Below, piece by piece: positions 10,742 through 59,816 of a stretch of 64,000 bases of DNA. The notes under the pieces are model-generated. The model was not told where the DNA came from. It did not search any database and saw nothing but the letters and a program-made list of their open reading frames with translations. A program made the position numbers and the translations under genes. The number at the start of each line of letters is the position of its first letter. Position 1 is the stretch's first letter. The stretch is from the NCBI GenBank assembly GCA_964587045.1, contig CAZPJY010000005.1, positions 183-64,182 of the forward strand, written 5' to 3'. This DNA comes from an uncultured Methanosarcinales archaeon. GTDB lineage: Archaea > Nanobdellota > Nanobdellia > Woesearchaeales > CAZPJY01.

Positions 10742-10953
10742 CTCATCCTTGTTTGGATTATCTCATAACTTTGCTTGTTCAGTATCCGGGCGATCTCCTC
10801 GGTCATGTCGGACATGATCTCTGCGCTGACTCTCTCTTCCTTGTAGCGGACGATCACGCGGAGCGGCTCCTCCTCGACCCGGATGCTCTTGAGGGGGAAC
10901 CTCTTGTAGAGGCTTCGCATCTTCTCGATAACGTCCTGCTCGATCATCCTCAC
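10738..10953 (-). CDS. small hypothetical protein inside the NAD operon
   Basis: 71 aa; 4-nt overlaps with both pncB (upstream) and pncA (downstream). Confidence 0.45.
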   Translation of the reverse strand: MRMIEQDVIEKMRSLYKRFPLKSIRVEEEPLRVIVRYKEERVSAEIMSDMTEEIARILNKQSYEIIQTRMR

Positions 10954-12359
10954 CTCAATTCGGCGGCTAGTTTGTCTGTCAGGTCTGATAGGTTACTGCT
11001 GAGCCGCACGGCGTATTTCTCTGACTTGTGTATGTCCCTGTACACTGCTGGTATCTTCGCCCTCTCTTTTATGGAGTATTCTCGGATCTCACTGATGGAG
11101 GGGAAATCATAGATTATCTCTCCCTTCTCCATTATTGGTATAAGCAGGGGCTTCCCATCAGAGTTCTCATCCCAAAGCGTTATGGCGTCGCCTGCGTACA
11201 TGCCCTGTTCATCGAATCTCCTGTAAACTTGCTTCTTGGATGGGAGGGTCATCTTGGCCATCTCGCTTGAGAGTTTCATCTTTGGTATGACTTTGCTGCC
11301 CTCACGGCGTTCCACCTCTTTGTATACTCCGGGGAGGGCCGCAACGCCTCCTTCCTTAGTGAATGGGTTGTAGACTGCACCAGTTATAAGCCTAGTCCCA
11401 ACACCGAACCCATCTATGGGAGCTCCCTCTTCAAGTAGCCGGTCGATTGTGAACTCGTCCAGGTCGTTTGATGCGAAGACCTTGACATCAGTTAGGCCTG
11501 CTTCGTCCAGTATCTTCCTTACTTCCCTTGAGAGTTTGAGGAGATCGCCTGAGTCGAGCCTCACGCCTTTGAGCTGGTATCCTCTCTCAGCGAGCTCCTT
11601 ACCAACAATCGCTGCGTTCCTCGCACCCTGCACCGTGTCGAATGTGTCTATCAGCAGTATCGGGTTGTGCGGGAACACATTGGCGTAGTCGCGGAAGGCT
11701 GTAAGCTCATCAGGTCTGTCTTGGACGAACTTATGGGCCATGGTCCCGACATAAGGCAACCCGAATTTTTTTCCAGCGGCGACTAGGGAGGTGCCCACAG
11801 CTCCGCCGATGTACGAGGCGCGTGCTCCTAACATGGCGGCATCGCGGCCGTGGGCCCTCCTTGCACCGAAATCAAGAAGTGTTTTTCCTTTTACGGTCTC
11901 TGATATCCTCGCGGCTTTCGTGGCGATGAGGGTTTGGAAGTTCATCATGTTGAGCAGGTAGGTCTCAATCAGCTGGACGTCGATTGAAGGGCCGGATATG
12001 TTTATGATCGGCTCTCCAGGGAATACTGGCGTTCCCTCAGGGACAGCGTATATGTCACCCTTAAACTGGAAGTTGCGCAGGTAGCCTATGAAATCATCCG
12101 ACAAGTCGCCGTTTGACGTGTCCTGAAGCCACTTGATGTCCTCTTCTGAGAATTTGATGTTCTTGACGAAGCTCACGACCTGTTCGAGGCCTGTGCTCAC
12201 CATGTAAGAGCCTTGCGGAACCTTCCTGACGAAGTAGTTTTCCGTGATTTCGACATTGTTATCCAAAGCATGGTCGGCCATGCCCATGGTCAGCTCGTAG
12301 TAGTCCTCGAATAGCGCGAGCTCGCTTTCGGTTATCAGTCCTGAGTTCGGTGCGTTCAT
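10950..12359 (-). CDS. pncB: nicotinate phosphoribosyltransferase
   Basis: ALFEDYYELTM N-terminal motif, 469 aa; SD AAGGAGGA 6 nt before ATG. Confidence 0.9.
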   Translation of the reverse strand: MNAPNSGLITESELALFEDYYELTMGMADHALDNNVEITENYFVRKVPQGSYMVSTGLEQVVSFVKNIKFSEEDIKWLQDTSNGDLSDDFIGYLRNFQFKGDIYAVPEGTPVFPGEPIINISGPSIDVQLIETYLLNMMNFQTLIATKAARISETVKGKTLLDFGARRAHGRDAAMLGARASYIGGAVGTSLVAAGKKFGLPYVGTMAHKFVQDRPDELTAFRDYANVFPHNPILLIDTFDTVQGARNAAIVGKELAERGYQLKGVRLDSGDLLKLSREVRKILDEAGLTDVKVFASNDLDEFTIDRLLEEGAPIDGFGVGTRLITGAVYNPFTKEGGVAALPGVYKEVERREGSKVIPKMKLSSEMAKMTLPSKKQVYRRFDEQGMYAGDAITLWDENSDGKPLLIPIMEKGEIIYDFPSISEIREYSIKERAKIPAVYRDIHKSEKYAVRLSSNLSDLTDKLAAELR

Positions 12360-29600: not shown

Positions 29601-29807
29601 TTACCTGTCGGAGATGTGCACGTAGCATCCGTCCGGTTCCCAGTATTTGTCCAGCCTGGGTATTTGATGCATGCCCTTGCATCTTGAGACATAGAAAGGA
29701 CCTGGATCCCACCTGGTGGTCGGCTCAACTTTTATGTCAGAAACAGCTGCTGCCAGCCACCCGGCGGCGAGGATCGCTGCAAGGTGCCTGGCTCTCATCC
29801 TCACCAC
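29601..29807 (-). CDS. small secreted Cys-containing protein
   Basis: HLAAILAAGWLAAAVS signal-like; 68 aa. Confidence 0.3.
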   Translation of the reverse strand: MVRMRARHLAAILAAGWLAAAVSDIKVEPTTRWDPGPFYVSRCKGMHQIPRLDKYWEPDGCYVHISDR

Positions 29808-31054
29808 TTGAAGTTGGCGAGCGCGTACTCTTGGGTATTGTCCTCGATGTGCTGCCAGGGGTCCTCCTCTACCGCGAGGGCGACCTTTTCATTGGTGCCG
29901 GGCACTGTGCACGTGTCGCAGAATCCCTCTATCAGCGCTGGCGACTCGAGGATGTTGTACTGCGTGTTGCACTGAGGGCACTTGCCTGACAGGAGCTTCA
30001 CGTACTGGTCGAATATTGACAGCTTGTGGTCGATGACCTTGTTCCGGAGGAAGGCGTTCTTGAAACCCCACTTGGCCAGCTTGAAGACTTGGGCCTGGGA
30101 GAATCCGAGGTGCCTCATCAGTATCATGTACTCCTTGGTCATGCTGGTGTCTGACACGGTCCGGTTGTCCGTGTTGATGTTGAGGCGCAGGTTGTATTCG
30201 AAGTACTGCCTGACAGGATGCGTATCATAGGTGTCGACCACGCCGGTGTCGACGTTGCTGCTGATGCAGATTTCCAAGGGCTTCCTTATCTCGTCGAGGT
30301 AGTCGAAAATGTTGTCGCCCTGCGTCAGCGCCCTGCCGTGGCCGATGCGGTCAGCCCTCAGGTGGCGGACCGCCTTGTCTATGCTCTCGACCCCTCCCTC
30401 CTCGCCCGCGTGGATGGTTATGGGCATCCAGCAGTCGAAGACTGGCTCGATGTCTTCCTTGTAGTTCTTGTGGTCGGTGCCCTTCTCCTGCCCCGCCAGG
30501 TCGAAGCCAACGACGCCGCGTCCGCGGTAGAGCGCGGCGGCTTCGGCTGCGCGTCTTATCAGCTCGGGGTGGTTCCTGTGTCCGCATATGATGAGGCCTG
30601 TGATGACGCCGAAGTTCCTTGCCGCGTCCTTCAGTCCTGCGAGAGACGGCTCGATTATCTGGTGCATCTTGAGCCCGTGCGTGAGGTAGTTGGTTGGGGC
30701 GAAGCGAAGCTCCATTATCTCGACCCGCTCGTTCCACGCGTCCTCGACTATCTCATATGCGACGCGGTAGAAAGCCTCAGGCGTCCGTAGGACTGATTCG
30801 GTCAGGTCGAATAGCTTGAGGTAGTTTTCGAGCGACTTGTTCTCCTGGTGCTTGAACTGGATGTGCTCGAGAATCTCGTTTTCGTCATATGTGGGTAGCT
30901 TGATCTTGTAGTCCTTGGCGAGCTCGACTAGTGTGCCCGGCCGGATGGACCCGCCCATGTGGCAGTGTAGGTCTGTCTTGGGCATCTCCTGCAGCCACTT
31001 GGGCACTTCGTATTCCTTGTCATCTATCGTGACGCTTCGGATGAGGTTTCTCAT
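29801..31054 (-). CDS. add: adenosine/AMP deaminase-family protein with C-terminal Cys4 zinc-ribbon
   Basis: DLHCHMGGS (HxH), ITIHAGE, NINTDN (SLNTDD-like); C-terminal CPQCN...CDTC. Confidence 0.7.
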   Translation of the reverse strand: MRNLIRSVTIDDKEYEVPKWLQEMPKTDLHCHMGGSIRPGTLVELAKDYKIKLPTYDENEILEHIQFKHQENKSLENYLKLFDLTESVLRTPEAFYRVAYEIVEDAWNERVEIMELRFAPTNYLTHGLKMHQIIEPSLAGLKDAARNFGVITGLIICGHRNHPELIRRAAEAAALYRGRGVVGFDLAGQEKGTDHKNYKEDIEPVFDCWMPITIHAGEEGGVESIDKAVRHLRADRIGHGRALTQGDNIFDYLDEIRKPLEICISSNVDTGVVDTYDTHPVRQYFEYNLRLNINTDNRTVSDTSMTKEYMILMRHLGFSQAQVFKLAKWGFKNAFLRNKVIDHKLSIFDQYVKLLSGKCPQCNTQYNILESPALIEGFCDTCTVPGTNEKVALAVEEDPWQHIEDNTQEYALANFKW

Positions 31055-38457: not shown

Positions 38458-39252
38458 ATGGATGTCGCAGAGAGGAGGCGTTTCCTCGCCAAGCTGGAAG
38501 GGGACCTGAAGGCCCTGTACGGCCAGATGAGGACGCAGGACGGGGCGTCACTGCCGCCCATGCGGGCGCTTGCCCCAGTCTCGGACCCGGTCACTGAGAT
38601 CGCGAAGCCAGTATGCGACCTGATGGCGTCGGAGGCGGGTATTGAGAAGGAGGATGACGTGAAGGGCTACCTGGACGGACTGTTCAGGGAGCGATTCGAC
38701 GACGAGCCGCACATAGAGCTAAACCTTGATGTCGAGGGCAGGAGGGGCACGATGAAGGTGAACCCCTACGACCTGGACAATCTGGGTTGCTCTGACATCG
38801 AGGAGTACGCTGACAAGACCCAGATGCGCCTGCGCAGGGACTTCCGCGAAGAGATCAACACAGGAAGCGACGTCTCGGACACCGTCGACAGCTTCAAGCT
38901 CCACTACCTCTCGGACCTGGTCATAAAGGCCTTATGCCAGGCGGGCGCCGCGGCGAGATCCGACGGCGGGTACGACGATGGCAAGCTCAGATCGGTTTTT
39001 GCGGAGACCCTGGCCGGGCTGATGGACTCGCACTGCGAGGCGATCAAGACTATCTTCGAATACTCCGGTTTCCAGAACGTGTCGGTCGAGGACGAGCTGG
39101 GGCTTGGCAAGATCGGGGCTGAGGTCATCCTGAAGTATGAGACCTTCGGCGACCTCTTCGACAGGAGGTTCGAGGCGGCTGCCAGAAGCAGGATCGGAGC
39201 TGTCCTTAATGATGAGGGCATCACTGACCTTGTGAAGAAGTACCGACCGTGA
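38458..39252 (+). CDS. hypothetical acidic protein
   Basis: 264-aa ORF. Confidence 0.45.
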   Translation: MDVAERRRFLAKLEGDLKALYGQMRTQDGASLPPMRALAPVSDPVTEIAKPVCDLMASEAGIEKEDDVKGYLDGLFRERFDDEPHIELNLDVEGRRGTMKVNPYDLDNLGCSDIEEYADKTQMRLRRDFREEINTGSDVSDTVDSFKLHYLSDLVIKALCQAGAAARSDGGYDDGKLRSVFAETLAGLMDSHCEAIKTIFEYSGFQNVSVEDELGLGKIGAEVILKYETFGDLFDRRFEAAARSRIGAVLNDEGITDLVKKYRP

Positions 39253-40474
39253 TGTCCTCTTTTAGGACTATCCTAACCAGGCTTTTAATCTCTTCGGTTA
39301 TCCCAGTGTCGTCCAGGTCGCGCGTCGCGAGCCTGCCTCTCTCGTTCTCTATCCTGTCGGCGAGGAGGTTCCGCTTCTCCTTGAGGGCTGTCAGCTTCTC
39401 CTCAGCCTGCAGCGATGACATCTGCTTCCTCAGCTCGTCTGCTTCCGAGCGCTGGGCGATGAGCTTGTCCCTGATCCCTTCCAGGGTCTTACTGGTGAGC
39501 CCGGCGACGGCCGCTTCGGCTTTGTCCTTTTGCCTGTCCTTTAGGCTTATCTTGTGCAGGGTGGTGCCAAGGCGCTGCAGCTCTTCTGCTATCTCCATAT
39601 CCTGGTCGTCTAGGAGGGCTCGGGTGAAGTCCTCGAGGTAGGAGTTGACCAGCTTCTCCTTCATGGATGTGCGGGCGAACTTGCGCAAGGGGCGCTCTAT
39701 CGGGGCGAATAGGGTGAACAGCCTCTGCTCAGTCGCCTTCCTTGCGCCTTCTGCCAGCTCGATGTCGTGGAGGAGCTGGTTGTGCCTCTTCATTTCAGGA
39801 CCGCTCTGGGCCTCTTTTACCTGCTTTTCCAGCTGCTTGAGCTCCTTTTCAAGGGAAGCGATGAGCCTCTTTTGGTCTGAGAGCCTCTTGTTCTGCTGTT
39901 TTCGCTCACGCCTGAGCGCCTCAAGATCGTCTATCCGGTCAGCCAGGGTGTCTGCTTGGAGGATCCTGAACCTCTGGGCTGCCTCCTTTATTGCCTTGAC
40001 CACCTTGTCTATCTGCTTTATGGATTCGCTCACATCTTTCGACTCGTGGGCTAGGAACTCCTGTAGCACGAAGTACGATCTCGCCGAGGACTTGCTCATG
40101 ACGTTGACGTGGTAGTCGTAGTCCTTGACGAAGGCGAGCACGCGATCCTTGCCTTTGATCCCTTTGGGTGAGATGCGGTCCAGGAATGCGTTGATGGTGT
40201 TGACGTACCCCTTCCTGTTGCCTTCCATGATCTGCTTGGCGCGCATCTCGATTTTTGGGTTGCGCAGCTCGGCATGATTGAGGGCTTCGAGGGCTTTCCT
40301 GCACGAAAGGATCGCTTCCCTCAGGCGTTCCATGTGCTCCCTTGTCTCTTCTTCGAAGGCTGCGATGTGCTCTGTTAGCCTCTCCCTGGCCCAGGAGGCC
40401 AGGTCCTGTGCGCTCACTTCTAAGGGCTCCTTGGGCTCCGGGGTGGAGAACAGCTCCTTGAGACGTTTGAACAT
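39221..40474 (-). CDS. coiled-coil protein
   Basis: 417 aa, long heptad-like E/K/R/L-rich stretches. Confidence 0.5.
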   Translation of the reverse strand: MFKRLKELFSTPEPKEPLEVSAQDLASWARERLTEHIAAFEEETREHMERLREAILSCRKALEALNHAELRNPKIEMRAKQIMEGNRKGYVNTINAFLDRISPKGIKGKDRVLAFVKDYDYHVNVMSKSSARSYFVLQEFLAHESKDVSESIKQIDKVVKAIKEAAQRFRILQADTLADRIDDLEALRRERKQQNKRLSDQKRLIASLEKELKQLEKQVKEAQSGPEMKRHNQLLHDIELAEGARKATEQRLFTLFAPIERPLRKFARTSMKEKLVNSYLEDFTRALLDDQDMEIAEELQRLGTTLHKISLKDRQKDKAEAAVAGLTSKTLEGIRDKLIAQRSEADELRKQMSSLQAEEKLTALKEKRNLLADRIENERGRLATRDLDDTGITEEIKSLVRIVLKEDITVGTSSQGQ

Positions 40475-40524: not shown

Positions 40525-40848
40525 ATGAGCCTGTCAACCCTTCCTGCCATGTCAAGGCGTAACAAAGAGGAGGAGCGCGCAATCGCCAGGAGGCGCATAG
40601 CGACGCTCTTTGAGCAGGCCCAGATGTCGGGCGATGAGGCCCTCTCCAGACGCTATGTGGTGATGGCAAGGAGGATCTCCACCAAGTACAGGGTGAGGAT
40701 ACCTCCCCAGTTCAGGAGGCGTTACTGCCGCTCCTGTAACGCTTTCTGGGTGCCTTCCAAGACTGTGAGGGTGCGGATCACAGGGTCCAAGGTCGTGTAT
40801 TCGTGCCTGTCCTGCGGGGCCAAGGCAAGGCTGCAGCTCAGGCGGTAG
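40525..40848 (+). CDS. rnp4: ribonuclease P protein component 4 (Rpp21/RNP4)
   Basis: ERAIARRRIATLFEQA...RRYCRSCNAFWVP...VYSCLSCG zinc-ribbon, matches archaeal Rpp21 architecture; TATA tttttatatg at ~-25. Confidence 0.75.
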   Translation: MSLSTLPAMSRRNKEEERAIARRRIATLFEQAQMSGDEALSRRYVVMARRISTKYRVRIPPQFRRRYCRSCNAFWVPSKTVRVRITGSKVVYSCLSCGAKARLQLRR

Positions 40849-41337
40849 GGCATTCCCGATTTCGGTATACACAAATGTATACTTTAACTACTCTAGAGTG
40901 ATAATAAAATCGAAAATTATATATAGGAGCTTCTATATTAAATAGGATATTCACTACTTTACAGTGGACCAAATCGTCGGGTGTGCAATTGACGGGGCCA
41001 AAAGTCCCGGACGTGAGATTAATGAGCGAGCTGACTGAAAGACTTCACAATCAAAGATTATTCTACAGTATGGCCTGCTATGACCCAAATGAGGAGTACT
41101 CTCCAGGATACTCCATCGTCGAGCCGGCCAGTCTCCAAAAAAAAGAGGTGGCATCCAGAATGCAGGTGATAAATGGTGCCCAGAAAGAGGAGATCGAAGA
41201 CCAACACAACGTTTTTCCTGGATATCAACGAGGGTAACGACGGGAAGAAATGGAAGCGCGTTGACAAATCCAAGGACCCGTTGATGTTCCTCTGATGTCC
41301 TGGAACTTTTTTTTCTTTTCTCCCAACATTTATTAAC

Positions 41338-41604
41338 ATGATTCTATTCCCAACGCCAATGGAGATTGACCTTGAGCTGGACCGTATAATATCGGGGATC
41401 AAAGAGAAGAAGGCGAAGAGAGTCATGCTCCAGCTCCCCGACGGCCTCAAGGCGAGAGCGGGCGACCTCGCGGACGAGATCGCAAGGGAGACCGGCGCGG
41501 AGGTCCTGATATGGGCGGGCTCAAACTACGGCGCGTGCGACCTGGCGCCGGCAGCGGAGGGCGTCGACCTCCTCGTGCACTTCGGTCACTCCGAGTGGCG
41601 CTAG
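41338..41604 (+). pseudogene. dph2: truncated dph2 (2-(3-amino-3-carboxypropyl)histidine synthase) N-terminal fragment, 88 codons
   Basis: LELDRIISGIKEKKAKRVMLQLPDGLK...AGSNYGACDLAPAAEGVDLLVHFGHSEW aligns with the first ~85 aa of archaeal Dph2, then stop. Remaining ~250 aa are absent in all frames; a minus-strand gene starts at 41601. Confidence 0.6.
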
Positions 41605-41984
41605 GGATGCTTGTAGAACTTCTCGATGAGCTGGTAGTCTGCCAGGTCCTTCTGCGTCTTCCTCTTCAGCTTGAACATTGCGACGTACTTGATGGGGACA
41701 TACGGGTGGCCGTCGATGATCTCCGCAGCTTCGATGAGATCGTCGGCAGACATCGTTGGGAGGGCAGAATCCCTCATTACCTCAAGATGGCCCCTGGCCA
41801 GCTTGCCAGCTTCTAGCGAGAAGTCCGGCCTGGCCTTGAGCCTATCCCACACGTCCTGTCTCACCATGATGTCCAGGTCCTTGTTCTCGCGCAGGCCGGC
41901 GACAGCCATCACAGCAGACCCTGTGAGCACGTAGTCTCCAACGCTCAGTTCCAGGTCCTCAAGCTCATCGAGGTATCTTATCAT
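41601..41984 (-). CDS. minimal nucleotidyltransferase (Pol-beta superfamily)
   Basis: GSAVMAVAGLRENKDLDIMV (GS...DxD) signature; 127 aa; ATGA overlap with upstream gene. Confidence 0.6.
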   Translation of the reverse strand: MIRYLDELEDLELSVGDYVLTGSAVMAVAGLRENKDLDIMVRQDVWDRLKARPDFSLEAGKLARGHLEVMRDSALPTMSADDLIEAAEIIDGHPYVPIKYVAMFKLKRKTQKDLADYQLIEKFYKHP

Positions 41985-42517
41985 TGCAGCCGCCTCGCGT
42001 AATGCGCCATGAAGGACTTGTCGCTGATGCTCACGTTGACCGCGGGCAGCACGACGTTGGCTTCCTTATCCCTTTCCTCGATGGTCTCGGCCGCCATCGT
42101 CCTTATCTGCATCAGGTTGCCAGAACCGATCAGCTCCCTCAAGTCCTTACTGCCGTACTTCCCCTTCCAGAGCCTATGCTCGAGCCTGCTTATCACACCT
42201 TTGGGCTTGAACCCTACGAGGTAGCAGCGGTGCGGCCCGCCGTTCAGCATCACGTCGTTTTGGTAGAAGCTTTGAATGGACAACGATAGCTGGCCTTCCG
42301 GAGGATTCATTGACCTGTATGGCGTGACCCCCGCCCCGGCGTTGGCTCCACACATAGAGGTGATCCAATCGTGGTAGTAAGCCATCGCCCACTCGTAAGA
42401 TGCCTGGTCGCCTGCGCGCTTCCTGGCCTCGCCGTAGTTCCTTATCACGTCGATCTTCGCCTGGTCGAAGCCGACTCCGCCGATGAAATCCTCGAGGAAC
42501 TCGTCGATGCCCTTCAT
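41981..42517 (-). CDS. hypothetical protein co-transcribed between pfk and the NTase
   Basis: 178 aa; 4-nt overlaps on both sides. Confidence 0.5.
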   Translation of the reverse strand: MKGIDEFLEDFIGGVGFDQAKIDVIRNYGEARKRAGDQASYEWAMAYYHDWITSMCGANAGAGVTPYRSMNPPEGQLSLSIQSFYQNDVMLNGGPHRCYLVGFKPKGVISRLEHRLWKGKYGSKDLRELIGSGNLMQIRTMAAETIEERDKEANVVLPAVNVSISDKSFMAHYARRLQ

Positions 42518-43650
42518 TTTCCCCCACCTTCCATCGTGTCGATACCGTCGCGCTCTGAGGTGTTGAGGACATTGTGCCGCACGCCGTTGTACAGCACCTT
42601 GTCATAGGTCTGCTCCACGTTGACCAGCTTGTATCCCTTCATCACCTCGCTGAGGTCGACGTGAGTGAATCCGCCCTCGAGCCATGATGCCATGCGTCCG
42701 GTCATGCCCTCATGTATCAGGTCCACCGCCGCGATCCCGAACAGGCGGGCCATGCGCTTGTCCCGCGCGTTCGGGGGCCCTCCCCTGACCAGATGGCCGG
42801 GGACATTAACCCTTACTGTGAGGTCGGTGCGCTCCTTTATCATGGCGCCGACCTTCTCTCCAATGCCCTTCAGGGTCTCGTGCCCGAATGCGTCCTTCTC
42901 CTTGCTCTCGGTCGAGAGCTCCCCCCCTATAGGCTTTGCGCCCTCGCTCACGACGACGATTGAGTAGTCTATCCCCTTGTGCTCCCTTACCATCAGGAGT
43001 TCCGCCACCTTGTCGGTCTCGAAGTCCACCTCAGGGATGAGTATGATGTAGGCCCCGCCTGCGATGCCGCCCGAAAGCGCGAGGTGGCCCGCGTGCCTTC
43101 CCATCACCTCGATCACGTATATCATGTCGTGCGATCCGCCGCAGGTCCTGAGGCGGTTGATCGCCTCGTCGACGCGGTCGACCGCGGTCTCGAATCCTAT
43201 GGTGTAGTCAGTACCCACCAGGTCGCGGTCGATGGTCTTGGGGATCCCTACGACAGGCAGCCCTTTCCCGTAGAGCTTGGCGGCTGCGCCGAGCGTGTCC
43301 TCGCCGCCAATGGCCACGATGTAGTCCAGTCCCAAAAGGTCAGCGTTCTTGAGAGTTATGTCAGAAAGGTCCTTCCCGTCGACGTTGAACGGGTTGTACC
43401 TGTCCGTCTTGAGGAGGGTGCCGCCAGAGCGGTCCCAGGTCCGCACTTTTTGTTCTGTCAGGATGCCCTCGACGTTCCTGCTGTTGTCAGCCCCGTAGGA
43501 TAAATCGTATTCTGTGAGGCCACGCCATCCGTACTTGAGGCCAACCACATCGTAGTCACCCCTAAATGTCGCTGCCTTCACTATCCACTTGATCGCGGAG
43601 TTAAGTCCTGGCGCGTCTCCTCCGCCGGTCAGTACCCCTATCCTTTTCAT
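42514..43650 (-). CDS. pfk: 6-phosphofructokinase, PFK-A family (ATP- or PPi-dependent)
   Basis: RIGVLTGGGDAPGLNSAI, GGEDTLG, MGRHAGH motifs. Confidence 0.85.
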   Translation of the reverse strand: MKRIGVLTGGGDAPGLNSAIKWIVKAATFRGDYDVVGLKYGWRGLTEYDLSYGADNSRNVEGILTEQKVRTWDRSGGTLLKTDRYNPFNVDGKDLSDITLKNADLLGLDYIVAIGGEDTLGAAAKLYGKGLPVVGIPKTIDRDLVGTDYTIGFETAVDRVDEAINRLRTCGGSHDMIYVIEVMGRHAGHLALSGGIAGGAYIILIPEVDFETDKVAELLMVREHKGIDYSIVVVSEGAKPIGGELSTESKEKDAFGHETLKGIGEKVGAMIKERTDLTVRVNVPGHLVRGGPPNARDKRMARLFGIAAVDLIHEGMTGRMASWLEGGFTHVDLSEVMKGYKLVNVEQTYDKVLYNGVRHNVLNTSERDGIDTMEGGGK

Positions 43651-43707
43651 GTTGAATCACCTGCGTCCGACGGAAGACAGCTTATTCTTAAAGCTTTCTG
43701 GGTCACC

Positions 43708-43717
43708 CTTAAATATT
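43708..43717 (+). promoter_or_regulatory. TATA box (cttaaatatt) 23-32 nt upstream of ATG 43740
   Basis: read directly. Confidence 0.35.
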
Positions 43718-43739
43718 CCCTGTTGCTGAAAGCCGTCTC

Positions 43740-44345
43740 ATGGGCGATTTGGTGATACTGGCGAAGTACCCGTTCCCCGGCGAGGTCAAGACGCGGCTCG
43801 CAGCTGACATAGGGGAGCGGAAGGCTGCCCGGTTCGCGAAGGCCATGCTCGACGACATGGTCGGCGTGGCCTCAGGGGTCTGCGAAGTGACGATAGCTGC
43901 CAGCAGGGGGGAGGCCCACCTTTTCAGGCAGGCGTACGACTGCAACGTCTGCGCCACCCCCAGGGGCAGCCTGCTCAGCAAGATATTCTATTCTGTCAGG
44001 GACAGGTATGTCAAGGGTGCTCAGGCTGTGGTCGCGATCACTGCCGACGTCGTCGTGAACGCAGACGAGATACGCGACTGGTTCTCGGTTCTCGAGGGTG
44101 GCGGCGTGCTGCTCGGCCCGACCTTCGACAACCTGTTCTACCTCATAGGCCTGGGCAGGAGGGGGGATGTCTTGGCCGACTCGGTATACAGGTCCATCAA
44201 GCGCGCGGGAATCCACATCCTAATGGACCGCCCGGGCATACACCTGGCTGCGAAGAAGCGCGACATCGACAGGCTCGACGACCTTTTAAGGACAGAGTTC
44301 CCCCCTGACTACCGTCGGACCCGGGAGTTGGTGAATCACTTGTAG
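43740..44345 (+). CDS. DUF2064/CofC-like nucleotidyltransferase-fold protein (TIGR04282-like, as I recall often associated with radical SAM/SelD-like clusters)
   Basis: MGDLVILAKYPFPGEVKTRLAADIG N-terminus characteristic of DUF2064. Confidence 0.55.
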   Translation: MGDLVILAKYPFPGEVKTRLAADIGERKAARFAKAMLDDMVGVASGVCEVTIAASRGEAHLFRQAYDCNVCATPRGSLLSKIFYSVRDRYVKGAQAVVAITADVVVNADEIRDWFSVLEGGGVLLGPTFDNLFYLIGLGRRGDVLADSVYRSIKRAGIHILMDRPGIHLAAKKRDIDRLDDLLRTEFPPDYRRTRELVNHL

Positions 44346-45549: not shown

Positions 45550-46887
45550 TTGGACAGACTGCAAAGCATACTCAAGGATTACGATCTCAAGCTGGGCGAC
45601 CTCAGCAAAGAGTACCCAGACATCGTCGACGCGATCAAGACACGCGAGGAGGAGGGCAAGAAGATCAACCCCATCAAGCGTGCGCTCGTCCTGAGAGGGA
45701 CGCTCTTCAAGGACGGCGCGGTGCTGCTGGCCGACTTCACTGGGACGTTGCAGGGTAAGGACACCTCGAAGGTGATCGACACTCAGCCCCTCATCGGCAC
45801 CAGCTACAACCCCTTCAGGGCCAAGGTCAACGTCAAGGACTTGGACCCGATAGCCGCCGAGGCCTACAGCAAGAGGCTGCTCGACATAAGGCGCATGGAC
45901 GACGCGGCCATCGAGGAGCACGTGAAGCGTCAGGAGTTCGACTTTCCCCTGTGGTTCAAGCACCATCCTGACTTCTCGATGGGCAAGATCACTCACTTCA
46001 ACATGCCTTTCATCCTCCAGGTAGCGGGGTGCAACTTCCATGACGGCTCGGAGAGGGGAGGGTGCTGGTACTGCTTCGTCGACGACAAGTCAAACGACGG
46101 CAGGCCCGGCGAGGGCAAGGCTTACGCTGTGCCTGGCCAGGTTATCGACAGCATGGAGATGGCGCGGGGTAAGGTCAAGAAGATCTACGCCGAATTCAAG
46201 GGCGGCGAGTTCGCGGACTATCCAATGGACCTGCGCGTTCTCCGCGTATCTGGAGGCGAGCCTACAATAACCCTGGACTGGGTGCTGGAGGTGTGGAGGG
46301 AGATCGAATTGAAGGGCCTCGACTTCGTCGGACAGATCGACAGCAACCTCTCGACGGCCCAGGTGGTTGACAGTTTCGAAAGGGAGGGCATCTACGAAGA
46401 CAGCACTCTCGAGAAGCTGGCCTCGTTTCGGGCCGGCGGCCTTTCCAGGATAAAGGTGCTGACCGCTCTGAAGGGAACTGACAACGAAAACCTCGCTTCC
46501 AACGTCCAGTCCAACGCGACGATCGAGGACCAGCTCTACTCCATCACCAAATTCCTCAGGGCGGGCTTGGACATCTATCCCCAGATGTACAACCCAAACC
46601 CCCGGAGCCTGACTGAGTACCTGCATGCGATGGACGGCAAGATTAGGGACTTCTCGCTGCGCGTCCACGTGGGGCCGCTCAAGATGTACGGCCCAAACGA
46701 GTACCGCCTGCGCGTCGAGGCCAGGAGGCTGCACGTCGACGAGGACCGCTTCGTGGACTTCCACGGCAAGCTTTGGGACCTCACGTACGAGTACGGCTGC
46801 TCTGTCGTCGACAACTACCTCCGTGACGCTCACGGGGTCGGCTACAAGGACGCCGTCAGGAGCGACGTCGGGCTGAAGCTGCTCTAA
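45550..46887 (+). CDS. radical SAM-like enzyme with non-canonical Cx10Cx2C cluster motif; TTG start with GAGGGGG SD
   Basis: QVAGCNFHDGSERGGCWYCF plus glycine-rich SAM motif LRVSGGEPTI; 445 aa. Confidence 0.5.
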   Translation: MDRLQSILKDYDLKLGDLSKEYPDIVDAIKTREEEGKKINPIKRALVLRGTLFKDGAVLLADFTGTLQGKDTSKVIDTQPLIGTSYNPFRAKVNVKDLDPIAAEAYSKRLLDIRRMDDAAIEEHVKRQEFDFPLWFKHHPDFSMGKITHFNMPFILQVAGCNFHDGSERGGCWYCFVDDKSNDGRPGEGKAYAVPGQVIDSMEMARGKVKKIYAEFKGGEFADYPMDLRVLRVSGGEPTITLDWVLEVWREIELKGLDFVGQIDSNLSTAQVVDSFEREGIYEDSTLEKLASFRAGGLSRIKVLTALKGTDNENLASNVQSNATIEDQLYSITKFLRAGLDIYPQMYNPNPRSLTEYLHAMDGKIRDFSLRVHVGPLKMYGPNEYRLRVEARRLHVDEDRFVDFHGKLWDLTYEYGCSVVDNYLRDAHGVGYKDAVRSDVGLKLL

Positions 46888-55835: not shown

Positions 55836-57947
55836 TCACTCTTTCATGGAGGCCGGTCTCCTGCGCGCGACCGCTGCCGGCTGCTCGAGACTGATGCCTG
55901 AGCGCTGCGCTGCCGCGTTCAGTACGGCAAGGATGATGTCTTCGTAGCTCATGCCTGCGGAAAAGCAGGAGCGCGGGAAGCGGGAGTTCTCGAGCGGATC
56001 GGGCATGAGGCCCGGCAGTGCGTTGACCTCGATCACGTTGGGCACGCCTCTCGAGTCCAGACGCATGTCTATCCTGCACAGGTCGCGCATGCCTAGAGTA
56101 TGGAAAGCGCGCATGGCAGTGTCGCGGATGCGCTGCTCTAGCTTCCTATCCAGCCTGGCAGGGCAGACGAGCGGGTCGACTCCTGGCACGTCATACTCCC
56201 ACTTGGCCTCGTAGCTGTCAAACCTGTGCATGCCCTTGGGCAGATGGTCGAACGTCACCTCGACGATGGGCAGGACTTTGGGAGGGTTGCCCAGCATCGG
56301 CACCGTGAACTCGCGGCCCTCGAGGAACTCCTCGACGAGTGCGGGCTGTCTGTAATCGCGTATGACCCCGGCGACCTTGCGCTTGAGCTCCCTTGGGCTG
56401 AAGACGAGCGAGTCGTTCCTGATGCCCTTGCTCGAGCCTTCGGAGTTGGGCTTGACGATCAGCGGGAAGCGCAGCTCTGCGTCGAGCTTGTCGCCTGCTG
56501 AGACAAAGGTCTGGTGCTTAGGGGTCGGGATGCCTGCCTGCGAGAGCACCGAGCTGGTCAGCGCCTTGTCAAGCGTGAGGGCGAGCGCCATCACTCCTGA
56601 ACCTGTGTAGGGGATGCGCAGCATCTCGAGGATCGCCGGCACGTGGCTTTCGCGCGCCTCGCCGTGCAAGCCTTCCGCTAGGTTGAAGGCGATGTCGAAC
56701 GCGCTCTTCCTGAGCCGGTCGTAGATGCGCTCGTCAGCCTCTACCAGCGTGGCTGAGTGGCCGTTCCTATCGAGCGCCTGCTTGATGGCCAGCGGCACCG
56801 AGATGTCGTCGAACTCTGCGTAAGCGTCCTTGGGCATGCCTGCTGGAGCCGCGCGCTTCTCATTGTAGATGATCGCCACTTTCAGCCCTGACGGGCTTCT
56901 CTTCCTCGGGTTGGCGTACTCGACCCTCCTTCCCTCGAAGTTCCTGAGCACGAATTTCCGCTCGTCCTTTGCGGTCACGAACTCTGGCAGGATGGGGATC
57001 TTTCCACCGCCAGGAGCGTCGATTACGTACTGCGGGATCGCGAGGCCTGATGTGAAGCCGTAGAGATCCTCCATTATCTTGAGCCCATCCTGGACCGACG
57101 TCCTGAAGTGCTCCGTGCCTTTGACCTGGTCTGCCTGGTAGAGGTAGTAAGGCCGGACCCTGTTCATGAGCAGGCGGTGGAACAGCTCCTTGAGCACCTC
57201 GGCGTCGTCGTTGACGCCTTTAAGCAGCACCGACTGGTTGCCCAGTGGTAGTCCCGCGTCTGCGAGCAGCTCAAGCGCCCCCTGGCTCTCGGGAGTGAGC
57301 TCGCGCGGGTGCTCGAAGTGGACGTTGACGTAGAGCGGCCTGTACCTGGCAAGCATCGATGCGAGCTTCTCGGTTACGCGCATGGGGAAGGTGCAAGGCA
57401 CCCTCGTCCCGATACGGATGATCTGCAGGTGCGGGATGGCGCGCAGGCGTTTTAGGATGGACTCGATCTCGCTGTCGGAGAGCATGAGCGGGTCGCCGCC
57501 TGAGAGTATGACGTCCCTCACCTCAGGGTGGGCTGCGACGTAGTCTATCGCGTCCTGGATGTGCGCCGGGGTGATCTCGACCTCGCGTCCGACCTTTCGC
57601 TTGCGCGTGCAGAACCTGCAGTACACCGCGCACCTGTTGGAGACGAGCATCAGCACGCGGTCTGGGTAGCGGTGCACCAGGAACGGCACTGGGGTGTACT
57701 GCTCCTCGAGCAGGGGGTCCTCGTCGTTCTCATTGTCGTTGAGCTCCTCGGGGTCTGGTATGCACTGCTTCCAGATGGGGTCGCCCTTCTCCCTGATCAG
57801 GCCCTTGTAGTACTCGGTCACCCTTACGGGGTAGACTCGGGTCACCTCTTTTTTAGAAAGCGCGATTTGTATCACCTGTTTAGTATGAGAAGAAGGTTGG
57901 AAGGTCACATCCGCCGCGGGGCGTCCAGTGGCCTTGCGGGATTCCAC
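55836..57947 (-). CDS. fusion of lysine 2,3-aminomutase-family radical SAM enzyme (KamA-like) with a D-Ala-D-Ala-ligase-type ATP-grasp domain
   Basis: VHRYPDRVLMLVSNRCAVYCRFCTRKRKVG (CxxxCxxC, KamA signature context); C-terminal half with ATP-grasp motifs ...EEFLEGREFTVPML...IEVNALPGL. Confidence 0.8.
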   Translation of the reverse strand: MESRKATGRPAADVTFQPSSHTKQVIQIALSKKEVTRVYPVRVTEYYKGLIREKGDPIWKQCIPDPEELNDNENDEDPLLEEQYTPVPFLVHRYPDRVLMLVSNRCAVYCRFCTRKRKVGREVEITPAHIQDAIDYVAAHPEVRDVILSGGDPLMLSDSEIESILKRLRAIPHLQIIRIGTRVPCTFPMRVTEKLASMLARYRPLYVNVHFEHPRELTPESQGALELLADAGLPLGNQSVLLKGVNDDAEVLKELFHRLLMNRVRPYYLYQADQVKGTEHFRTSVQDGLKIMEDLYGFTSGLAIPQYVIDAPGGGKIPILPEFVTAKDERKFVLRNFEGRRVEYANPRKRSPSGLKVAIIYNEKRAAPAGMPKDAYAEFDDISVPLAIKQALDRNGHSATLVEADERIYDRLRKSAFDIAFNLAEGLHGEARESHVPAILEMLRIPYTGSGVMALALTLDKALTSSVLSQAGIPTPKHQTFVSAGDKLDAELRFPLIVKPNSEGSSKGIRNDSLVFSPRELKRKVAGVIRDYRQPALVEEFLEGREFTVPMLGNPPKVLPIVEVTFDHLPKGMHRFDSYEAKWEYDVPGVDPLVCPARLDRKLEQRIRDTAMRAFHTLGMRDLCRIDMRLDSRGVPNVIEVNALPGLMPDPLENSRFPRSCFSAGMSYEDIILAVLNAAAQRSGISLEQPAAVARRRPASMKE

Positions 57948-58094: not shown

Positions 58095-59816
58095 TCACAG
58101 CCTGACCTTCTCGGGACCTTCCGGCCCTATGCGCACCAGGCCGCGGTCTGTCAGGTGGAGCTCAGGTATCACCGCGAGCTGCAGGAAGCTCATCGCGGCC
58201 ACCGGGTCCTCGAGGGTGCCGCCCAGCGACGCGTAGGCCTTGAGCACCTTGGCCTTGTCCCTGACCACCTTGTCGGGCGAGTCCTTGGACATGAGTCCTG
58301 CGACGTTGAGGCGGAGCGACGCGACCGTGCTCGAGTCCTTGGCCACCACCACCCCGCCCTGCATGCGCCGCAGCTCGTTTACCGCGTGCGCCATGTCGGT
58401 GTCTGAGGCTCCGATGACGCAGAGGTTGTGCGCGTCGTGGCCGACTGTGGTGGCCATCGCGCCCTCCTTCATGCCGAAGCCGTCGACGAAGCCTATCGAG
58501 AAGTTGTCCTCGCCCGTGTGCCTGTTGATGACAGCCGCCTTGAGCACGTCCTCGACCCTCGCCTGGGTCTCCTGCGTGATGAGCTTTCCGGGCAGCACCC
58601 TGATGGCCCGGACGTTCTTCCTGTGCGTGTGGAAGTCCTCTGCGGAGAACGGCCTCTGGATGTTGACGGTCTTTAGCATGTACTGGTGGTATGGGTAGTC
58701 CTCGCAGTCGTTCTTCAGCTCTCCCTCCTGCGCGACGAGGAGACCGTTCCGGAACGTCGCGTACACTTCGAAGCTCTCCAGGTCGTCGACGATTGCGATG
58801 TCCGCGCGCGTCCCGATGCCCAGGCGGCCTCGGTAGCGCATGCCGAAGAACTCAGCGGGAGTGAGGGTTGCCATGCGCACCAGGTCGACAGCGCCTATGG
58901 CCCCCTTGGTAAGCGCGGCCGCCTCCCTCAGGGTGTCGTTTATGTGGCCCTTGGTGAGCAGGTCGTAGGCGGTGCGGTCGTCGCTGCAGAACATGAGGCG
59001 GCGCGTGTCTATGCCGCGCTCCGCGACGTATTCCATCAGGCCGACGTCCTTTGCCGTCGAGCCGTTCCTGACCATGACCATCATGCCTTTCTTCAGCTTC
59101 TCCTCGAGCTCCCCGCCCGCCGAGGTCTCGTGGTCTGCCATGATGCCAGCGTTGATGTAGCCTGAGAGCGCCTTGCCCGAGAGGCCCGGGCAGTGGCCGT
59201 CGATGATGGGCGGCAGCTTCTTGTAGCCGCGCATGCGGTACGTCTCCTCTATCTTCGATAGGATCTTCTCGTCGCCTGAAAGGACGCCGGGGAAGTTCAT
59301 GACCTCGCCCAGTCCGATGCAGTCGCGCTCCATGATGAGCAGCTTGATGTCGTCGACGGTGACCTCGGCTCCTGACGTCTCGAAGGGCATGCCCAATGCC
59401 GGAACGCACGAGGGCACGGTGAAGTAGCAGCGCAGGTTGGTGTAGTGGCCCTCGTCCATCATCTGCCTGATGCCCTTGATGCCCAGCACGTTCGCTATCT
59501 CGTGCGGGTCGGATATGACTGTCGTGGTGCCGTGGGGAAGGACGGCGCGTGAGAAGTTGGTGAGGGTGAGCATGCTGCTCTCGATGTGGATGTGGGGCTC
59601 TATGAATCCCGGCAGCACGTACCTGCCCTTGAGGTCCATTACGCTGTCTGCTGTGTAGTCGTCGTAGAGGCCTACGATGCGGTGGCCGCGTATGGCGACG
59701 TCGCCCTCAGTGATGAGCCCTGACTGCACGTCGACGATCCTGCCGCCTTTGAGGACGATTTCGGGAGGGTTCTTGCCCAGCGCGTTTGCTATGCTCTCCT
59801 GGTAGCGGTTGACCAT
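58095..59816 (-). CDS. ade: adenine deaminase
   Basis: LPGFIEPHIHIESSML, 573 aa. Confidence 0.85.
   Translation of the reverse strand: MVNRYQESIANALGKNPPEIVLKGGRIVDVQSGLITEGDVAIRGHRIVGLYDDYTADSVMDLKGRYVLPGFIEPHIHIESSMLTLTNFSRAVLPHGTTTVISDPHEIANVLGIKGIRQMMDEGHYTNLRCYFTVPSCVPALGMPFETSGAEVTVDDIKLLIMERDCIGLGEVMNFPGVLSGDEKILSKIEETYRMRGYKKLPPIIDGHCPGLSGKALSGYINAGIMADHETSAGGELEEKLKKGMMVMVRNGSTAKDVGLMEYVAERGIDTRRLMFCSDDRTAYDLLTKGHINDTLREAAALTKGAIGAVDLVRMATLTPAEFFGMRYRGRLGIGTRADIAIVDDLESFEVYATFRNGLLVAQEGELKNDCEDYPYHQYMLKTVNIQRPFSAEDFHTHRKNVRAIRVLPGKLITQETQARVEDVLKAAVINRHTGEDNFSIGFVDGFGMKEGAMATTVGHDAHNLCVIGASDTDMAHAVNELRRMQGGVVVAKDSSTVASLRLNVAGLMSKDSPDKVVRDKAKVLKAYASLGGTLEDPVAAMSFLQLAVIPELHLTDRGLVRIGPEGPEKVRL

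What the first reader, a model, noticed from the sequence alone, without database searches (positions are those of the whole stretch)
41338..43650. Truncated dph2 abutting a pfk-X-nucleotidyltransferase operon
The first ~85 residues of diphthamide synthase Dph2 are recognisable, then a stop at 41604. No continuation exists in any frame. Instead the minus strand carries a minimal Pol-beta nucleotidyltransferase and a 178-aa unknown, joined to pfk by 4-nt overlaps. Either diphthamide synthesis has been lost/disrupted by insertion (as in some archaeal lineages), or Dph2 is encoded elsewhere. The NTase-plus-partner pair co-transcribed with a glycolytic kinase is itself odd.
Basis: partly seen in the sequence, partly recalled or inferred. 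Interest (0 to 1): 0.55.

Follow-up and report, generated by a model that had tools for sequence, protein, structure and literature searches.

The report
Split dph2 N-terminal gene, not truncation
The "truncated" dph2 is the intact N-terminal half of a two-piece diphthamide synthase gene, a split already described in DPANN archaea, and the neighbouring pfk, unknown gene and small nucleotidyltransferase are unrelated neighbours that did not disrupt it.

Summary
All four ORFs exist as described. The 88-aa ORF (more likely 81 aa, starting at 41359) is Dph2 domain 1. No continuation of Dph2 exists in any frame of the 64-kb window.

It is not a truncation. More than 70 homologous proteins are also 77-126 aa long. 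In 78 of the 80 best-matching species-level genomes (Woesearchaeota/Nanoarchaeota) the frame stops 0-23 codons after the same GHSEW motif. The Fe-S ligand cysteine (PhDph2 Cys59) is kept. The upstream rpr2 gene and its coiled-coil neighbour are syntenic with relatives.

Seven relatives carry a separate C-terminal gene directly downstream, holding the other two ligand cysteines. In the other 73 it lies more than 10 kb away, as it apparently does here. Split Dph1/2 in DPANN is published (Narrowe 2018; Podar 2013).

On the minus strand, pfk, orf178 and nt127 are joined by ATGA overlaps and have native codon composition. The 127-aa protein is a confident Pol-beta-fold nucleotidyltransferase from an uncurated family, with AbiEii/MenT-like motifs and no conserved partner. 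orf178 is an ORFan. No relative shares this arrangement. Overall this is ordinary and of low interest.

The parts
41338..41604 (+). dph2-N: stand-alone gene for domain 1 of diphthamide synthase Dph2. The likely true start is 41359, giving 81 aa. It carries the first [4Fe-4S] ligand cysteine (C67 in 88-aa numbering).
   Evidence: PF01866 positions 1-56/302, E 6e-13; TIGR00322 positions 2-81/320, E 5e-22. 73 homologues of 77-126 aa. All end at ...FGHSEW[RK]. It aligns to residues 7-84 of solved Dph2, and C67 corresponds to PhDph2 Cys59.
41601..41984 (-). nt127: a 127-aa minimal Pol-beta-fold nucleotidyltransferase from an uncurated family, with AbiEii/MenT-like motifs (GS...R...DxD; K105; K112-D113-x-x-D116). 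It is the last gene of the pfk operon, and its stop codon overlaps the dph2-N stop (CTAG).
   Evidence: No Pfam or NCBIfam hit. 544 hits at E<=1e-3 in the exhaustive HMMER search, the best 150 (all that are listed) all on this part of the query. Motif conservation. AF2 pLDDT 96.8. Foldseek: TM1012, MenT1, JHP933, LnuA, ANT(2''). phrog_12854, E 9e-7.
41981..42517 (-). orf178: a 178-aa ORFan of unknown function that fills the whole gap between pfk and nt127, with ATGA overlaps at both ends.
   Evidence: Only self hits. No Pfam, NCBIfam, PADLOC or PHROG hit. Codon-position GC 0.53/0.41/0.80, like neighbouring genes. GGTGGGGG lies just upstream of its ATG. The single-sequence AF2 model is unusable, pLDDT 41.
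42514..43650 (-). pfk: a PfkA-family 6-phosphofructokinase and first gene of the three-gene operon. The GGEDT and PKTID motifs suggest a PPi-dependent type (own knowledge, not tested).
   Evidence: PF00365, E 8e-84; NF002872 313 bits, above its cutoff of 253. Motifs.
43651..43739 (.). 89-bp divergent intergenic region between pfk and a CofC/DUF2064-like gene (43740-44345, +). It holds A/T-rich TATA-like boxes and a GGTGA ribosome-binding site upstream of pfk, and is the only plausible promoter region for pfk-orf178-nt127.
   Evidence: Read from the sequence. There is no intergenic space inside the operon. Promoter function is inferred.
40525..40848 (+). rpr2 (RNase P protein component 4): the conserved upstream neighbour of dph2-N in relatives, used here as a synteny anchor.
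   Evidence: PF04032, E 5e-18. It lies within 10 kb of dph2-N in 26 of 80 relatives, and upstream on the same strand within about 1.2 kb in nine.
39221..40474 (-). A 417-aa coiled-coil protein, divergent from rpr2; a second synteny anchor shared with Woesearchaeota-type relatives.
   Evidence: tblastn hits in 10 of the 80 dph2-N loci; next to rpr2 in nine of them.
40849..41337 (.). A 489-bp A/T-rich spacer (GC about 47-50% against 54% for the window) between rpr2 and dph2-N. It contains a 15-bp indel polymorphism (41063-41077) between two assemblies.
   Evidence: No Rfam or tRNA hit.

Best explanation
The plus-strand ORF is dph2-N, the N-terminal-domain gene of a split dph2, in a Woesearchaeota/Nanoarchaeota-type DPANN archaeon. 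It encodes domain 1 of the radical-SAM enzyme 2-(3-amino-3-carboxypropyl)histidine synthase, including the first of the three cysteines that hold the [4Fe-4S] cluster.

The other two domains, with the other two cysteines, are encoded by a separate dph2-C gene. That gene is not on this 64-kb contig (shown). It presumably lies elsewhere in the genome (inferred from relatives and from the literature). The two polypeptides would assemble non-covalently to rebuild the cluster site and transfer the ACP group of SAM to the target histidine of EF-2 (inferred; never tested for any split Dph2 as far as I know).

The stop at 41604 is the ancestral split site, not a lesion. The minus-strand pfk-orf178-nt127 unit is a compact, translationally coupled operon specific to this lineage, which converges on dph2-N. 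It consists of a probably PPi-type phosphofructokinase, an ORFan, and a small Pol-beta-fold nucleotidyltransferase from an uncharacterised family. Their co-transcription most likely reflects tight gene packing rather than a shared pathway.
For: - Domain identity.
- Small-gene family: 73 homologues, all 77-126 aa, all PF01866.
- Shared C-terminus: aligned homologues end at ...FGHSEW[RK], with K38, A41, W59, G65, C67, D68, D77, G83 and H84 invariant.
- Scale: at least 594 genome loci were found. The best 80 are all Woesearchaeota/Nanoarchaeota-type, and 78 of them stop 0-23 codons after GHSEW.
- Ligand cysteine: C67 aligns with PhDph2 Cys59.
- Separate C-terminal gene: in 7 of 80 relatives it lies directly downstream (PF01866 positions 69-277/302, E 8e-34). 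It aligns to residues 92-308 of solved Dph2 and keeps the QVLGC and ACPR cysteine motifs.
- Dispersal is normal: in the other 73 relatives the C-terminal gene is not within 10 kb.
- Ancestral upstream synteny.
- A different genomic context in relative P0027, with the gene still 86 aa.
- Literature: the split into N- and C-terminal genes in DPANN is reported in PMC6143161, PMC6349945 and PMC3655853.
- The same junction is present in an independently assembled contig.
- Operon: ATGA overlaps, a Shine-Dalgarno-like GGTGGGGG, and native GC3 of about 0.8 in all three genes.
Against: - The C-terminal gene of this organism was not seen. It is absent from the 64 kb, and the rest of the genome is not available.
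- No dph5, dph6 or EF-2 was found among about 49 window ORFs scanned. An intact diphthamide pathway in this genome is therefore inferred, not shown.
- Assembly of the two halves into an active enzyme has not been demonstrated here, nor, to my knowledge, anywhere.
- The organism's taxonomy rests on similarity of about 60% and on synteny, not on marker phylogeny.
Confidence: 0.86

Rival explanations
1. A recent truncation: a full-length dph2 was cut at 41604 when the nt127-orf178(-pfk) block was inserted or rearranged, leaving a pseudogene stub, and diphthamide synthesis was lost.
For: No Dph2 continuation in any frame of the window. The convergent nt127 gene abuts the stop codon. pfk, orf178 and nt127 are found next to dph2-N in no relative. 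Some archaeal lineages do lack dph genes (PMC6143161).
Against: The stop falls at the same site as in 78 of the 80 relatives and in more than 70 database proteins. All family-invariant residues, including the Fe-S cysteine, are intact. GC3 is 0.81, like neighbouring live genes, although that alone cannot exclude a recent lesion. The flanking minus-strand genes have native codon composition with no sign of foreign origin.
Confidence: 0.02
2. An N-terminal piece without a partner: this lineage descends from split-dph2 ancestors but has lost dph2-C (and perhaps dph5 and dph6). dph2-N would then be a decaying relic or would have taken on another role.
For: No C-terminal gene, dph5, dph6 or EF-2 in 64 kb. 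Loss of diphthamide synthesis is known in several archaeal lineages.
Against: 64 kb is a small part of a genome. In 73 of 80 relatives the C-terminal gene is also more than 10 kb away. The protein shows no decay at invariant positions. The literature reports both halves in split DPANN genomes.
Confidence: 0.07
3. orf178 and nt127 form a toxin-antitoxin-like or abortive-infection-like pair: a miniature AbiEii/MenT-type nucleotidyltransferase toxin with an upstream, translationally coupled, fast-evolving antitoxin, riding on the pfk transcript.
For: nt127 carries motifs I and II, the conserved Arg four residues before the first Asp, and a +DxxD pentad, as described for DUF1814/AbiEii (against PMC3985639). 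The MenT1 toxin is among the best fold matches. The upstream gene overlaps by 4 nt, as in the bicistronic abiE operon (bicistronic: PMC3985639; that such pairs typically overlap by 4 nt is my own knowledge). The partner is an ORFan, and antitoxins are often poorly conserved (own knowledge). There is a weak PHROG hit.
Against: No DUF1814 or PADLOC hit. Eight homologue contexts show no conserved partner, and the upstream genes are unrelated to orf178 and to each other. Family members are fused to CYTH, NUDIX, Maf, RIO-kinase and methyltransferase domains, which points to nucleotide metabolism or signalling rather than toxicity. orf178 has no recognisable HTH match and no HEPN Rx4-6H motif.
Confidence: 0.1
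4. An assembly artefact: a chimeric contig joins two unrelated pieces at about 41604 and so creates an apparent truncation.
For: The window comes from a metagenome-derived contig. The junction has convergent genes with no spacer.
Against: A separately assembled 4,106-bp JGI contig spans the junction with 99.6% identity (3 SNPs and one 15-bp intergenic indel). GC and codon-position composition run continuously across it. The stop is at the family's normal end.
Confidence: 0.01

Closest known systems
Split Dph1/2 (separate N- and C-terminal domain genes) of DPANN archaea: Narrowe et al. 2018 (PMC6143161); Dombrowski et al. 2019 (PMC6349945); Nanoarchaeote Nst1 genes Nst222/Nst440 (Podar et al. 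2013, PMC3655853)
   Same: A stand-alone ~80-90-aa gene for Dph2 domain 1. The C-terminal gene is elsewhere or adjacent in relatives. The relatives are Woesearchaeota/Nanoarchaeota-type. The gene ends at the same point as in more than 70 homologues.
   Different: Nothing essential differs. This instance lies in a relatively G+C-rich genome (54% overall; about 56-62% over the coding part of this locus). It abuts a convergent operon specific to this lineage, and its partner C-terminal gene was not observed.
Single-gene archaeal Dph2 (P. horikoshii PH1105, PDB 3LZC/3LZD; 6BXM; 6Q2D)
   Same: Residues 9-86 align with domain 1 (38-58 bits). The GACD cysteine corresponds to Cys59, one of the three [4Fe-4S] ligands.
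   Different: It lacks domains 2 and 3 (about 250 aa), which hold Cys163 and Cys287. Alone it cannot form the cluster site.
DUF1814 / AbiEii / MenT nucleotidyltransferase toxins (Dy et al. 2014, PMC3985639; MenT1, PDB 8AN4)
   Same: For nt127: Pol-beta fold; hG[GS]x12DhD; a conserved Arg four residues before the first Asp; a C-terminal Lys and a +DxxD pentad; an upstream gene overlapping by 4 nt.
   Different: 127 aa against about 190-300 aa. No HMM-level match to DUF1814 or to PADLOC models. No conserved antitoxin partner across the family. Toxicity not tested.
TM1012-type and LnuA/ANT(2'')-type small nucleotidyltransferases (PDB 2FCL, 4FO1, 4XJE)
   Same: These are the best structural matches to the nt127 model (TM-score normalised to the query 0.57-0.66 for TM1012 and LnuA), and they have a similar minimal size.
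   Different: Sequence identity is only 12-19%. The substrate is unknown. Nothing suggests antibiotic modification in this organism.
MNT-HEPN toxin-antitoxin pairs of archaea
   Same: A small Pol-beta nucleotidyltransferase gene tightly coupled to a second small gene.
   Different: orf178 has no HEPN Rx4-6H motif and no HEPN Pfam hit. nt127 does not reach the threshold for PF01909 or PF18765.

Membership tests
Dph2 (PF01866 / TIGR00322 / arCOG04112), split N-terminal gene | Sequence homology to Dph2 domain 1 | tested here: met
   PF01866 49.3 bits, above its cutoff of 33.2, positions 1-56/302. TIGR00322 78.7 bits, above its cutoff of 35. Aligns to solved Dph2 structures 6bxm, 6q2d and 3lzc.
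Dph2 (PF01866 / TIGR00322 / arCOG04112), split N-terminal gene | First [4Fe-4S] ligand cysteine (PhDph2 Cys59, GACD motif) retained | tested here: met
   C67 aligns with Cys95 of the tagged 3lzc chain, which is native Cys59. The residue is invariant in 29 homologues. The role of Cys59 comes from established knowledge (Zhang et al. 2010).
Dph2 (PF01866 / TIGR00322 / arCOG04112), split N-terminal gene | The gene ends at the domain 1/2 boundary shared by relatives (a conserved split site) | tested here: met
   All aligned homologues end at FGHSEW[RK] plus or minus a few residues. 78 of 80 genome loci stop 0-23 codons after the motif.
Dph2 (PF01866 / TIGR00322 / arCOG04112), split N-terminal gene | A separate gene for domains 2-3, with the other two ligand cysteines, in the same genome | not testable with these tools
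   Absent from the 64-kb window, and the rest of the genome is not held. In relatives, 7 of 80 have it directly downstream, with QVLGC and ACPR conserved. The literature reports both halves.
Dph2 (PF01866 / TIGR00322 / arCOG04112), split N-terminal gene | Rest of the pathway present (dph5, dph6, EF-2 with the target His) | tested here: inconclusive
   None found among about 49 window ORFs scanned by Pfam. A relative has a possible dph5 (a PF00590 TP_methylase protein of 283 aa; identification not confirmed) 8 kb from its dph2-N. 64 kb is too little sequence to decide.
Dph2 (PF01866 / TIGR00322 / arCOG04112), split N-terminal gene | The two halves assemble into an active ACP-transferase | not testable with these tools
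   Needs biochemistry or at least a complex prediction. No C-terminal sequence from this organism is available.
Pol-beta superfamily nucleotidyltransferase (minimal NTase) | hG[GS]x9-13Dh[DE]h catalytic motif | tested here: met
   G22-S23-x12-D36-L-D38. G22, S23, D36 and D38 are at least 90% conserved in 56 family members.
Pol-beta superfamily nucleotidyltransferase (minimal NTase) | Pol-beta-like alpha/beta fold | tested here: met
   AF2 pLDDT 96.8, pTM 0.89. Foldseek probability 1.00 to TM1012, MenT1 and JHP933, and 0.96-0.99 to LnuA and ANT(2'').
Pol-beta superfamily nucleotidyltransferase (minimal NTase) | Match to a curated NTase HMM (PF01909, PF18765, DUF6036) above threshold | tested here: not met
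   No hit for nt127. Homologues give only sub-threshold hits, E 0.002-0.05.
DUF1814 / AbiEii / MenT toxin | Motifs I-IV (GS; DxD with a preceding Arg; KLxAaxxR; +DxxD) | tested here: inconclusive
   Motifs I, II, the Arg and +DxxD (K112-D113-L-A-D116) are present and conserved. Motif III is only loosely matched (consensus K105-x4-R, with Lys in nt127 where the consensus has Arg). Sources: against the definition in PMC3985639. This is a comparison of motifs by eye, not a profile test.
DUF1814 / AbiEii / MenT toxin | HMM-level membership (Pfam DUF1814; PADLOC AbiE models) | tested here: not met
   No Pfam or PADLOC hit.
DUF1814 / AbiEii / MenT toxin | A conserved cognate upstream antitoxin gene | tested here: not met
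   Eight homologue contexts show solitary genes or unrelated upstream genes. Pairwise BLASTP of the upstream genes against orf178 gives E >= 0.07.
MNT-HEPN toxin-antitoxin pair | A partner protein with a HEPN domain and the Rx4-6H motif | tested here: not met
   No Rx4-6H in orf178. No Pfam hit.
PfkA-family phosphofructokinase | Full-length PF00365 match | tested here: met
   281.7 bits, positions 1-277/277. NF002872 313 bits, above its cutoff of 253. The GGEDT and PKTID motifs hint at a PPi type (the meaning of the signature is from own knowledge, not tested).

The most novel reading that the evidence does not exclude
orf178 and nt127 are a previously unrecognised two-gene module. nt127 would be a miniature (127-aa) AbiEii/MenT-like nucleotidyltransferase that nucleotidylylates an RNA or protein target. 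orf178 would be an ORFan partner that controls it, and the pair would be expressed from the pfk promoter, so that its dosage follows central carbon metabolism in a host-dependent DPANN cell.

More broadly, the nt127 family (at least 544 cluster representatives, no curated model, fusions to CYTH, NUDIX, Maf, RIO kinase and methyltransferase) would be a new branch of minimal nucleotidyltransferases with an unknown substrate.
Probability: 0.1. Interest if true: 0.45.

Novelty: already known. Interest (0 to 1): 0.12.

Why it matters
Mostly as a caution for annotation. In Woesearchaeota/Nanoarchaeota-type genomes an ~85-aa Dph2 fragment is the normal state of the gene. It should not be scored as a pseudogene, as loss of diphthamide synthesis, or as an insertion scar. 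It also distorts single-copy marker counts, as Narrowe et al. already noted.

Two side products came out of the work:
- A precise, clade-wide split site (after GHSEW, between domains 1 and 2). This places one Fe-S ligand on one polypeptide and two on the other, which could be tested by reconstitution.
- A sizeable, uncurated family of about 130-aa nucleotidyltransferases with AbiEii-like motifs, which may deserve a family model.

Neither would surprise a specialist.

Tried and rejected
- **C-terminal half in the window.** I Pfam-scanned about 49 ORFs and ran a six-frame hmmsearch with a seven-sequence C-terminal HMM. Nothing was found, so the C-terminal gene is not on this contig.
- **Homologues of orf178.** The word-indexed search, the exhaustive phmmer search (among the best 150 of 544 hits, the only ones listed, none maps to orf178), Pfam, NCBIfam, PADLOC and PHROGs and tblastn against all fetched loci all found nothing. 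The single-sequence AlphaFold model had pLDDT 41 and was not used.
- **Profile search of the nt127 family against PDB sequences.** Only chance hits, E > 1.
- **pfk-anchored synteny in metagenomes.** Apart from the same sample's contig, only relatives of about 50% identity were found, and they share no neighbours.
- **Selection test from the second assembly (L001).** Only 3 SNPs and one indel, none in orf178 or nt127, so there was no power.
- **A hidden RNA gene in the 489-bp spacer upstream of dph2-N, or elsewhere.** No Rfam or tRNA hit. No terminator-like sites (the promoter scan there is bacterial-type and not informative for an archaeon).
- **A HEPN partner.** Considered and rejected.
- **A conserved partner gene for the NTase family.** Rejected.
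- **Organism name.** The cluster look-up returned no name.
Full report
**Observation.**
- The plus-strand ORF matches only the N-terminal part of the Dph2 models: PF01866 positions 1-56 of 302, E 6e-13; TIGR00322 positions 2-81 of 320, E 5e-22.
- The 378-aa ORF is a full-length PfkA-family phosphofructokinase (PF00365, E 8e-84).
- The two ORFs between them have no Pfam or NCBIfam match.
- The minus-strand junctions read GGTGGGGGAAAATGAAGG and GCTGCAATGATAAG, which are ATGA stop/start overlaps. The convergent dph2 and nt127 stop codons share a CTAG.

**The 88-aa ORF is not a truncation.**
- A search of 5.8 billion proteins returned 73 homologues. All are 77-126 aa long, all carry PF01866, and those that are named come from Woesearchaeota, Nanoarchaeota or Nanobdellota.
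- Aligned, they end at the same place...FGHSEW[RK], which is exactly where the window ORF stops. K38, A41, W59, G65, C67, D68, D77, G83 and H84 are invariant.
- A scan of one genome per GTDB species found at least 594 loci. The best 80 are all DPANN MAGs of this type, a few of them labelled 'Methanosarcinales'. In 78 of the 80 the reading frame stops 0-23 codons after the GHSEW motif.
- Against solved Dph2 structures the ORF aligns to residues 7-84. Its C67 corresponds to Cys59 of P. horikoshii Dph2, one of the three [4Fe-4S] ligands (established knowledge: Zhang et al. 2010).
- Homologues begin M-x-YDLELD, and the public gene call is 81 aa. The real start is therefore probably 41359. A TTTATTAA box about 25-30 nt upstream would fit a leaderless archaeal transcript (inference).

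**Where the rest of Dph2 is.**
- I clustered the ORFs that flank the 80 loci. One family lies immediately downstream of the N-terminal gene in seven genomes.
- Its member L022:1546-2292 is PF01866 positions 69-277 of 302, E 8e-34. It aligns to residues 92-308 of solved Dph2 and keeps the QVLGC and ACPR cysteine motifs.
- The enzyme in this clade is therefore encoded as domain 1 (one ligand) plus domains 2-3 (two ligands).
- An HMM of the seven C-terminal genes, searched against the six-frame translation of the window and of every locus with filters off, recovers only those seven.
- So there is no C-terminal gene in the 64-kb window. The other 73 relatives also lack one within 10 kb, so dispersal is the norm.
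- About 49 window ORFs scanned by Pfam include no dph5, dph6 or EF-2. For 64 kb this is uninformative.

**Synteny.**
- The left flank is ancestral. rpr2 (RNase P component 4, 40525-40848) lies within 10 kb of dph2-N in 26 of 80 relatives. It sits upstream on the same strand within about 1.2 kb in nine of them, with gaps as small as 34-37 nt.
- The divergent 417-aa coiled-coil gene (39221-40474) has homologues in ten of these loci, next to rpr2 in nine.
- In a more distant relative the 86-aa gene sits between the S3Ae and PHP genes and is still stand-alone.
- No relative has pfk, orf178 or nt127 near dph2-N.
- pfk-anchored loci from metagenomes are only about 50% identical and share no neighbours.
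- The right flank is thus specific to this lineage, but it did not cut anything.
- A separately assembled 4.1-kb contig spans the junction at 99.6% identity, so a chimera is unlikely.

**Literature.** The split is already described.
- Narrowe et al. [quoted passage not shown]
- Dombrowski et al. 2019 list Parvarchaeota, Pacearchaeota, Woesearchaeota and Altiarchaeota (PMC6349945).
- Podar et al. 2013 list a split DPH2 (Nst222/Nst440) in a nanoarchaeote (PMC3655853).

The headline finding is therefore an instance of a known phenomenon.

**The minus-strand operon.** pfk, orf178 and nt127 have no intergenic space. A Shine-Dalgarno-like GGTGGGGG precedes orf178. The only plausible promoter region is the 89-bp A/T-rich spacer upstream of pfk. 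Codon-position GC is 0.61/0.40/0.78 for pfk, 0.53/0.41/0.80 for orf178 and 0.61/0.31/0.77 for nt127, indistinguishable from neighbouring genes. All three look like native coding genes. Co-transcription is inferred, not shown.

**nt127.**
- The word-indexed search found only the protein itself.
- An exhaustive phmmer search, using orf178 and nt127 concatenated as one query, gave 544 hits at E<=1e-3. All of the best 150 map to the nt127 part. They are mostly proteins of 125-140 aa at 30-41% identity.
- A 56-member alignment shows nearly invariant G22, S23, R32, D36 and D38 (hG[GS]x12DhD). It also shows an invariant K105 and D113, with K112 and D116 at 90% or more, giving a K-D-x-x-D pentad.
- These features resemble motifs I, II and IV of DUF1814/AbiEii, and the conserved arginine four residues before the first aspartate, as defined by Dy et al. 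2014 (PMC3985639).
- The AlphaFold model is very confident (pLDDT 96.8). Its best PDB matches are TM1012 (E 2e-4, TM-score 0.66 normalised to the query), the MenT1 toxin, JHP933, LnuA and ANT(2'').
- The Pol-beta NTase call is thus correct at superfamily level. The protein still fails every curated HMM (Pfam, NCBIfam, PADLOC) apart from a weak PHROG of unknown function.
- Some homologues are fused to CYTH, NUDIX, Maf, RIO-kinase or methyltransferase domains.
- Eight homologue contexts show no conserved neighbour. The two with an abutting upstream gene have genes unrelated to orf178 and to each other.

**orf178.** It has no homologue in any search and no HEPN motif. Its single-sequence model is unusable. 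I can say only that it is very probably a real, translationally coupled, lineage-specific gene.

**Mechanism and verdict.**
- Most likely (about 0.86), dph2-N is a working half of a split radical-SAM diphthamide synthase, and its partner gene lies off this contig. The abutting operon is a consequence of tight gene packing.
- Step shown for this window: domain identity.
- Step shown for this window: the ligand cysteine is retained.
- Step shown for this window: the stop falls at the clade-wide split site.
- Step shown for this window: the upstream synteny is ancestral.
- Step shown only in relatives: a separate C-terminal gene exists.
- Steps inferred: the C-terminal gene is present in this genome, the two halves assemble, and the enzyme is active.
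- The toxin-antitoxin-like reading of orf178 and nt127 is possible but weak (about 0.1).
- Interest is low. The main feature is already known and the remainder is an uncharacterised small NTase next to an ORFan.

Noticed in passing
window 55836-57947 (-): A 703-aa ORF fuses a radical-SAM lysine-2,3-aminomutase-like module (Radical_SAM plus LAM_C) to a D-Ala-D-Ala-ligase-type ATP-grasp domain. This is an unusual fusion that could make and then ligate beta-lysine.
   Followed up: no
window 45550-46887 (+): A 445-aa ORF with no Pfam hit contains a cysteine motif, C-x11-C-x2-C (AGCNFHDGSERGGCWYCF), reminiscent of variant radical-SAM cluster sites.
   Followed up: no
window 42514-43650 (-): The PFK has GGEDT and PKTID at the positions where ATP-dependent enzymes have GGDG and PGTID. 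From my own knowledge of the family this is the PPi-dependent signature, whereas NCBIfam names the best passing model 'ATP-dependent'.
   Followed up: partly
window 9141-12359 (-): A contiguous NAD salvage cluster: NAD synthase (9141-10082), an isochorismatase/nicotinamidase-like gene (10082-10741) and nicotinate phosphoribosyltransferase (10950-12359).
   Followed up: no
window 2548-3231 (-), 29801-31054 (-), 58095-59816 (-); L100:3273-4545: The window encodes a cytidine/dCMP deaminase, an adenosine deaminase and an adenine deaminase. The nt127 homologue P0077 lies about 1.7 kb from a dCMP-deaminase and adenosine-deaminase gene pair in its own contig. This may be coincidence or a hint of a link to nucleotide salvage.
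   Followed up: no
window 41063-41077 (spacer 40849-41337): A 15-bp indel separates the window from the independently assembled JGI contig L001, inside a 489-bp A/T-rich spacer between rpr2 and dph2-N. The spacer has no Rfam or tRNA hit. Several relatives also keep a spacer of about 440-770 bp here.
   Followed up: partly
L104:1-438 and protein P0084: In L104 the gene that overlaps the NTase homologue by 4 nt contains a GNYLELE-type stretch that looks like a CYTH domain (by eye, not tested). P0084 is a confirmed CYTH-NTase fusion. This suggests a functional link between this NTase family and triphosphate-tunnel enzymes.
   Followed up: partly
L014, L022, L024, L025, L027, L028 and others: Many genome records titled 'uncultured Methanosarcinales archaeon' carry the Woesearchaeota-type split dph2-N gene. 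The taxonomic labels of these MAGs are probably wrong.
   Followed up: no
window 1-64000: There is no tRNA gene and no Rfam family at gathering threshold anywhere in the 64 kb.
   Followed up: no
L002:1518-2369: In the relative that carries P0027, a TP_methylase-family gene (283 aa, a possible dph5) lies about 8 kb upstream of dph2-N. This is consistent with an intact diphthamide pathway in split-dph2 genomes.
   Followed up: no
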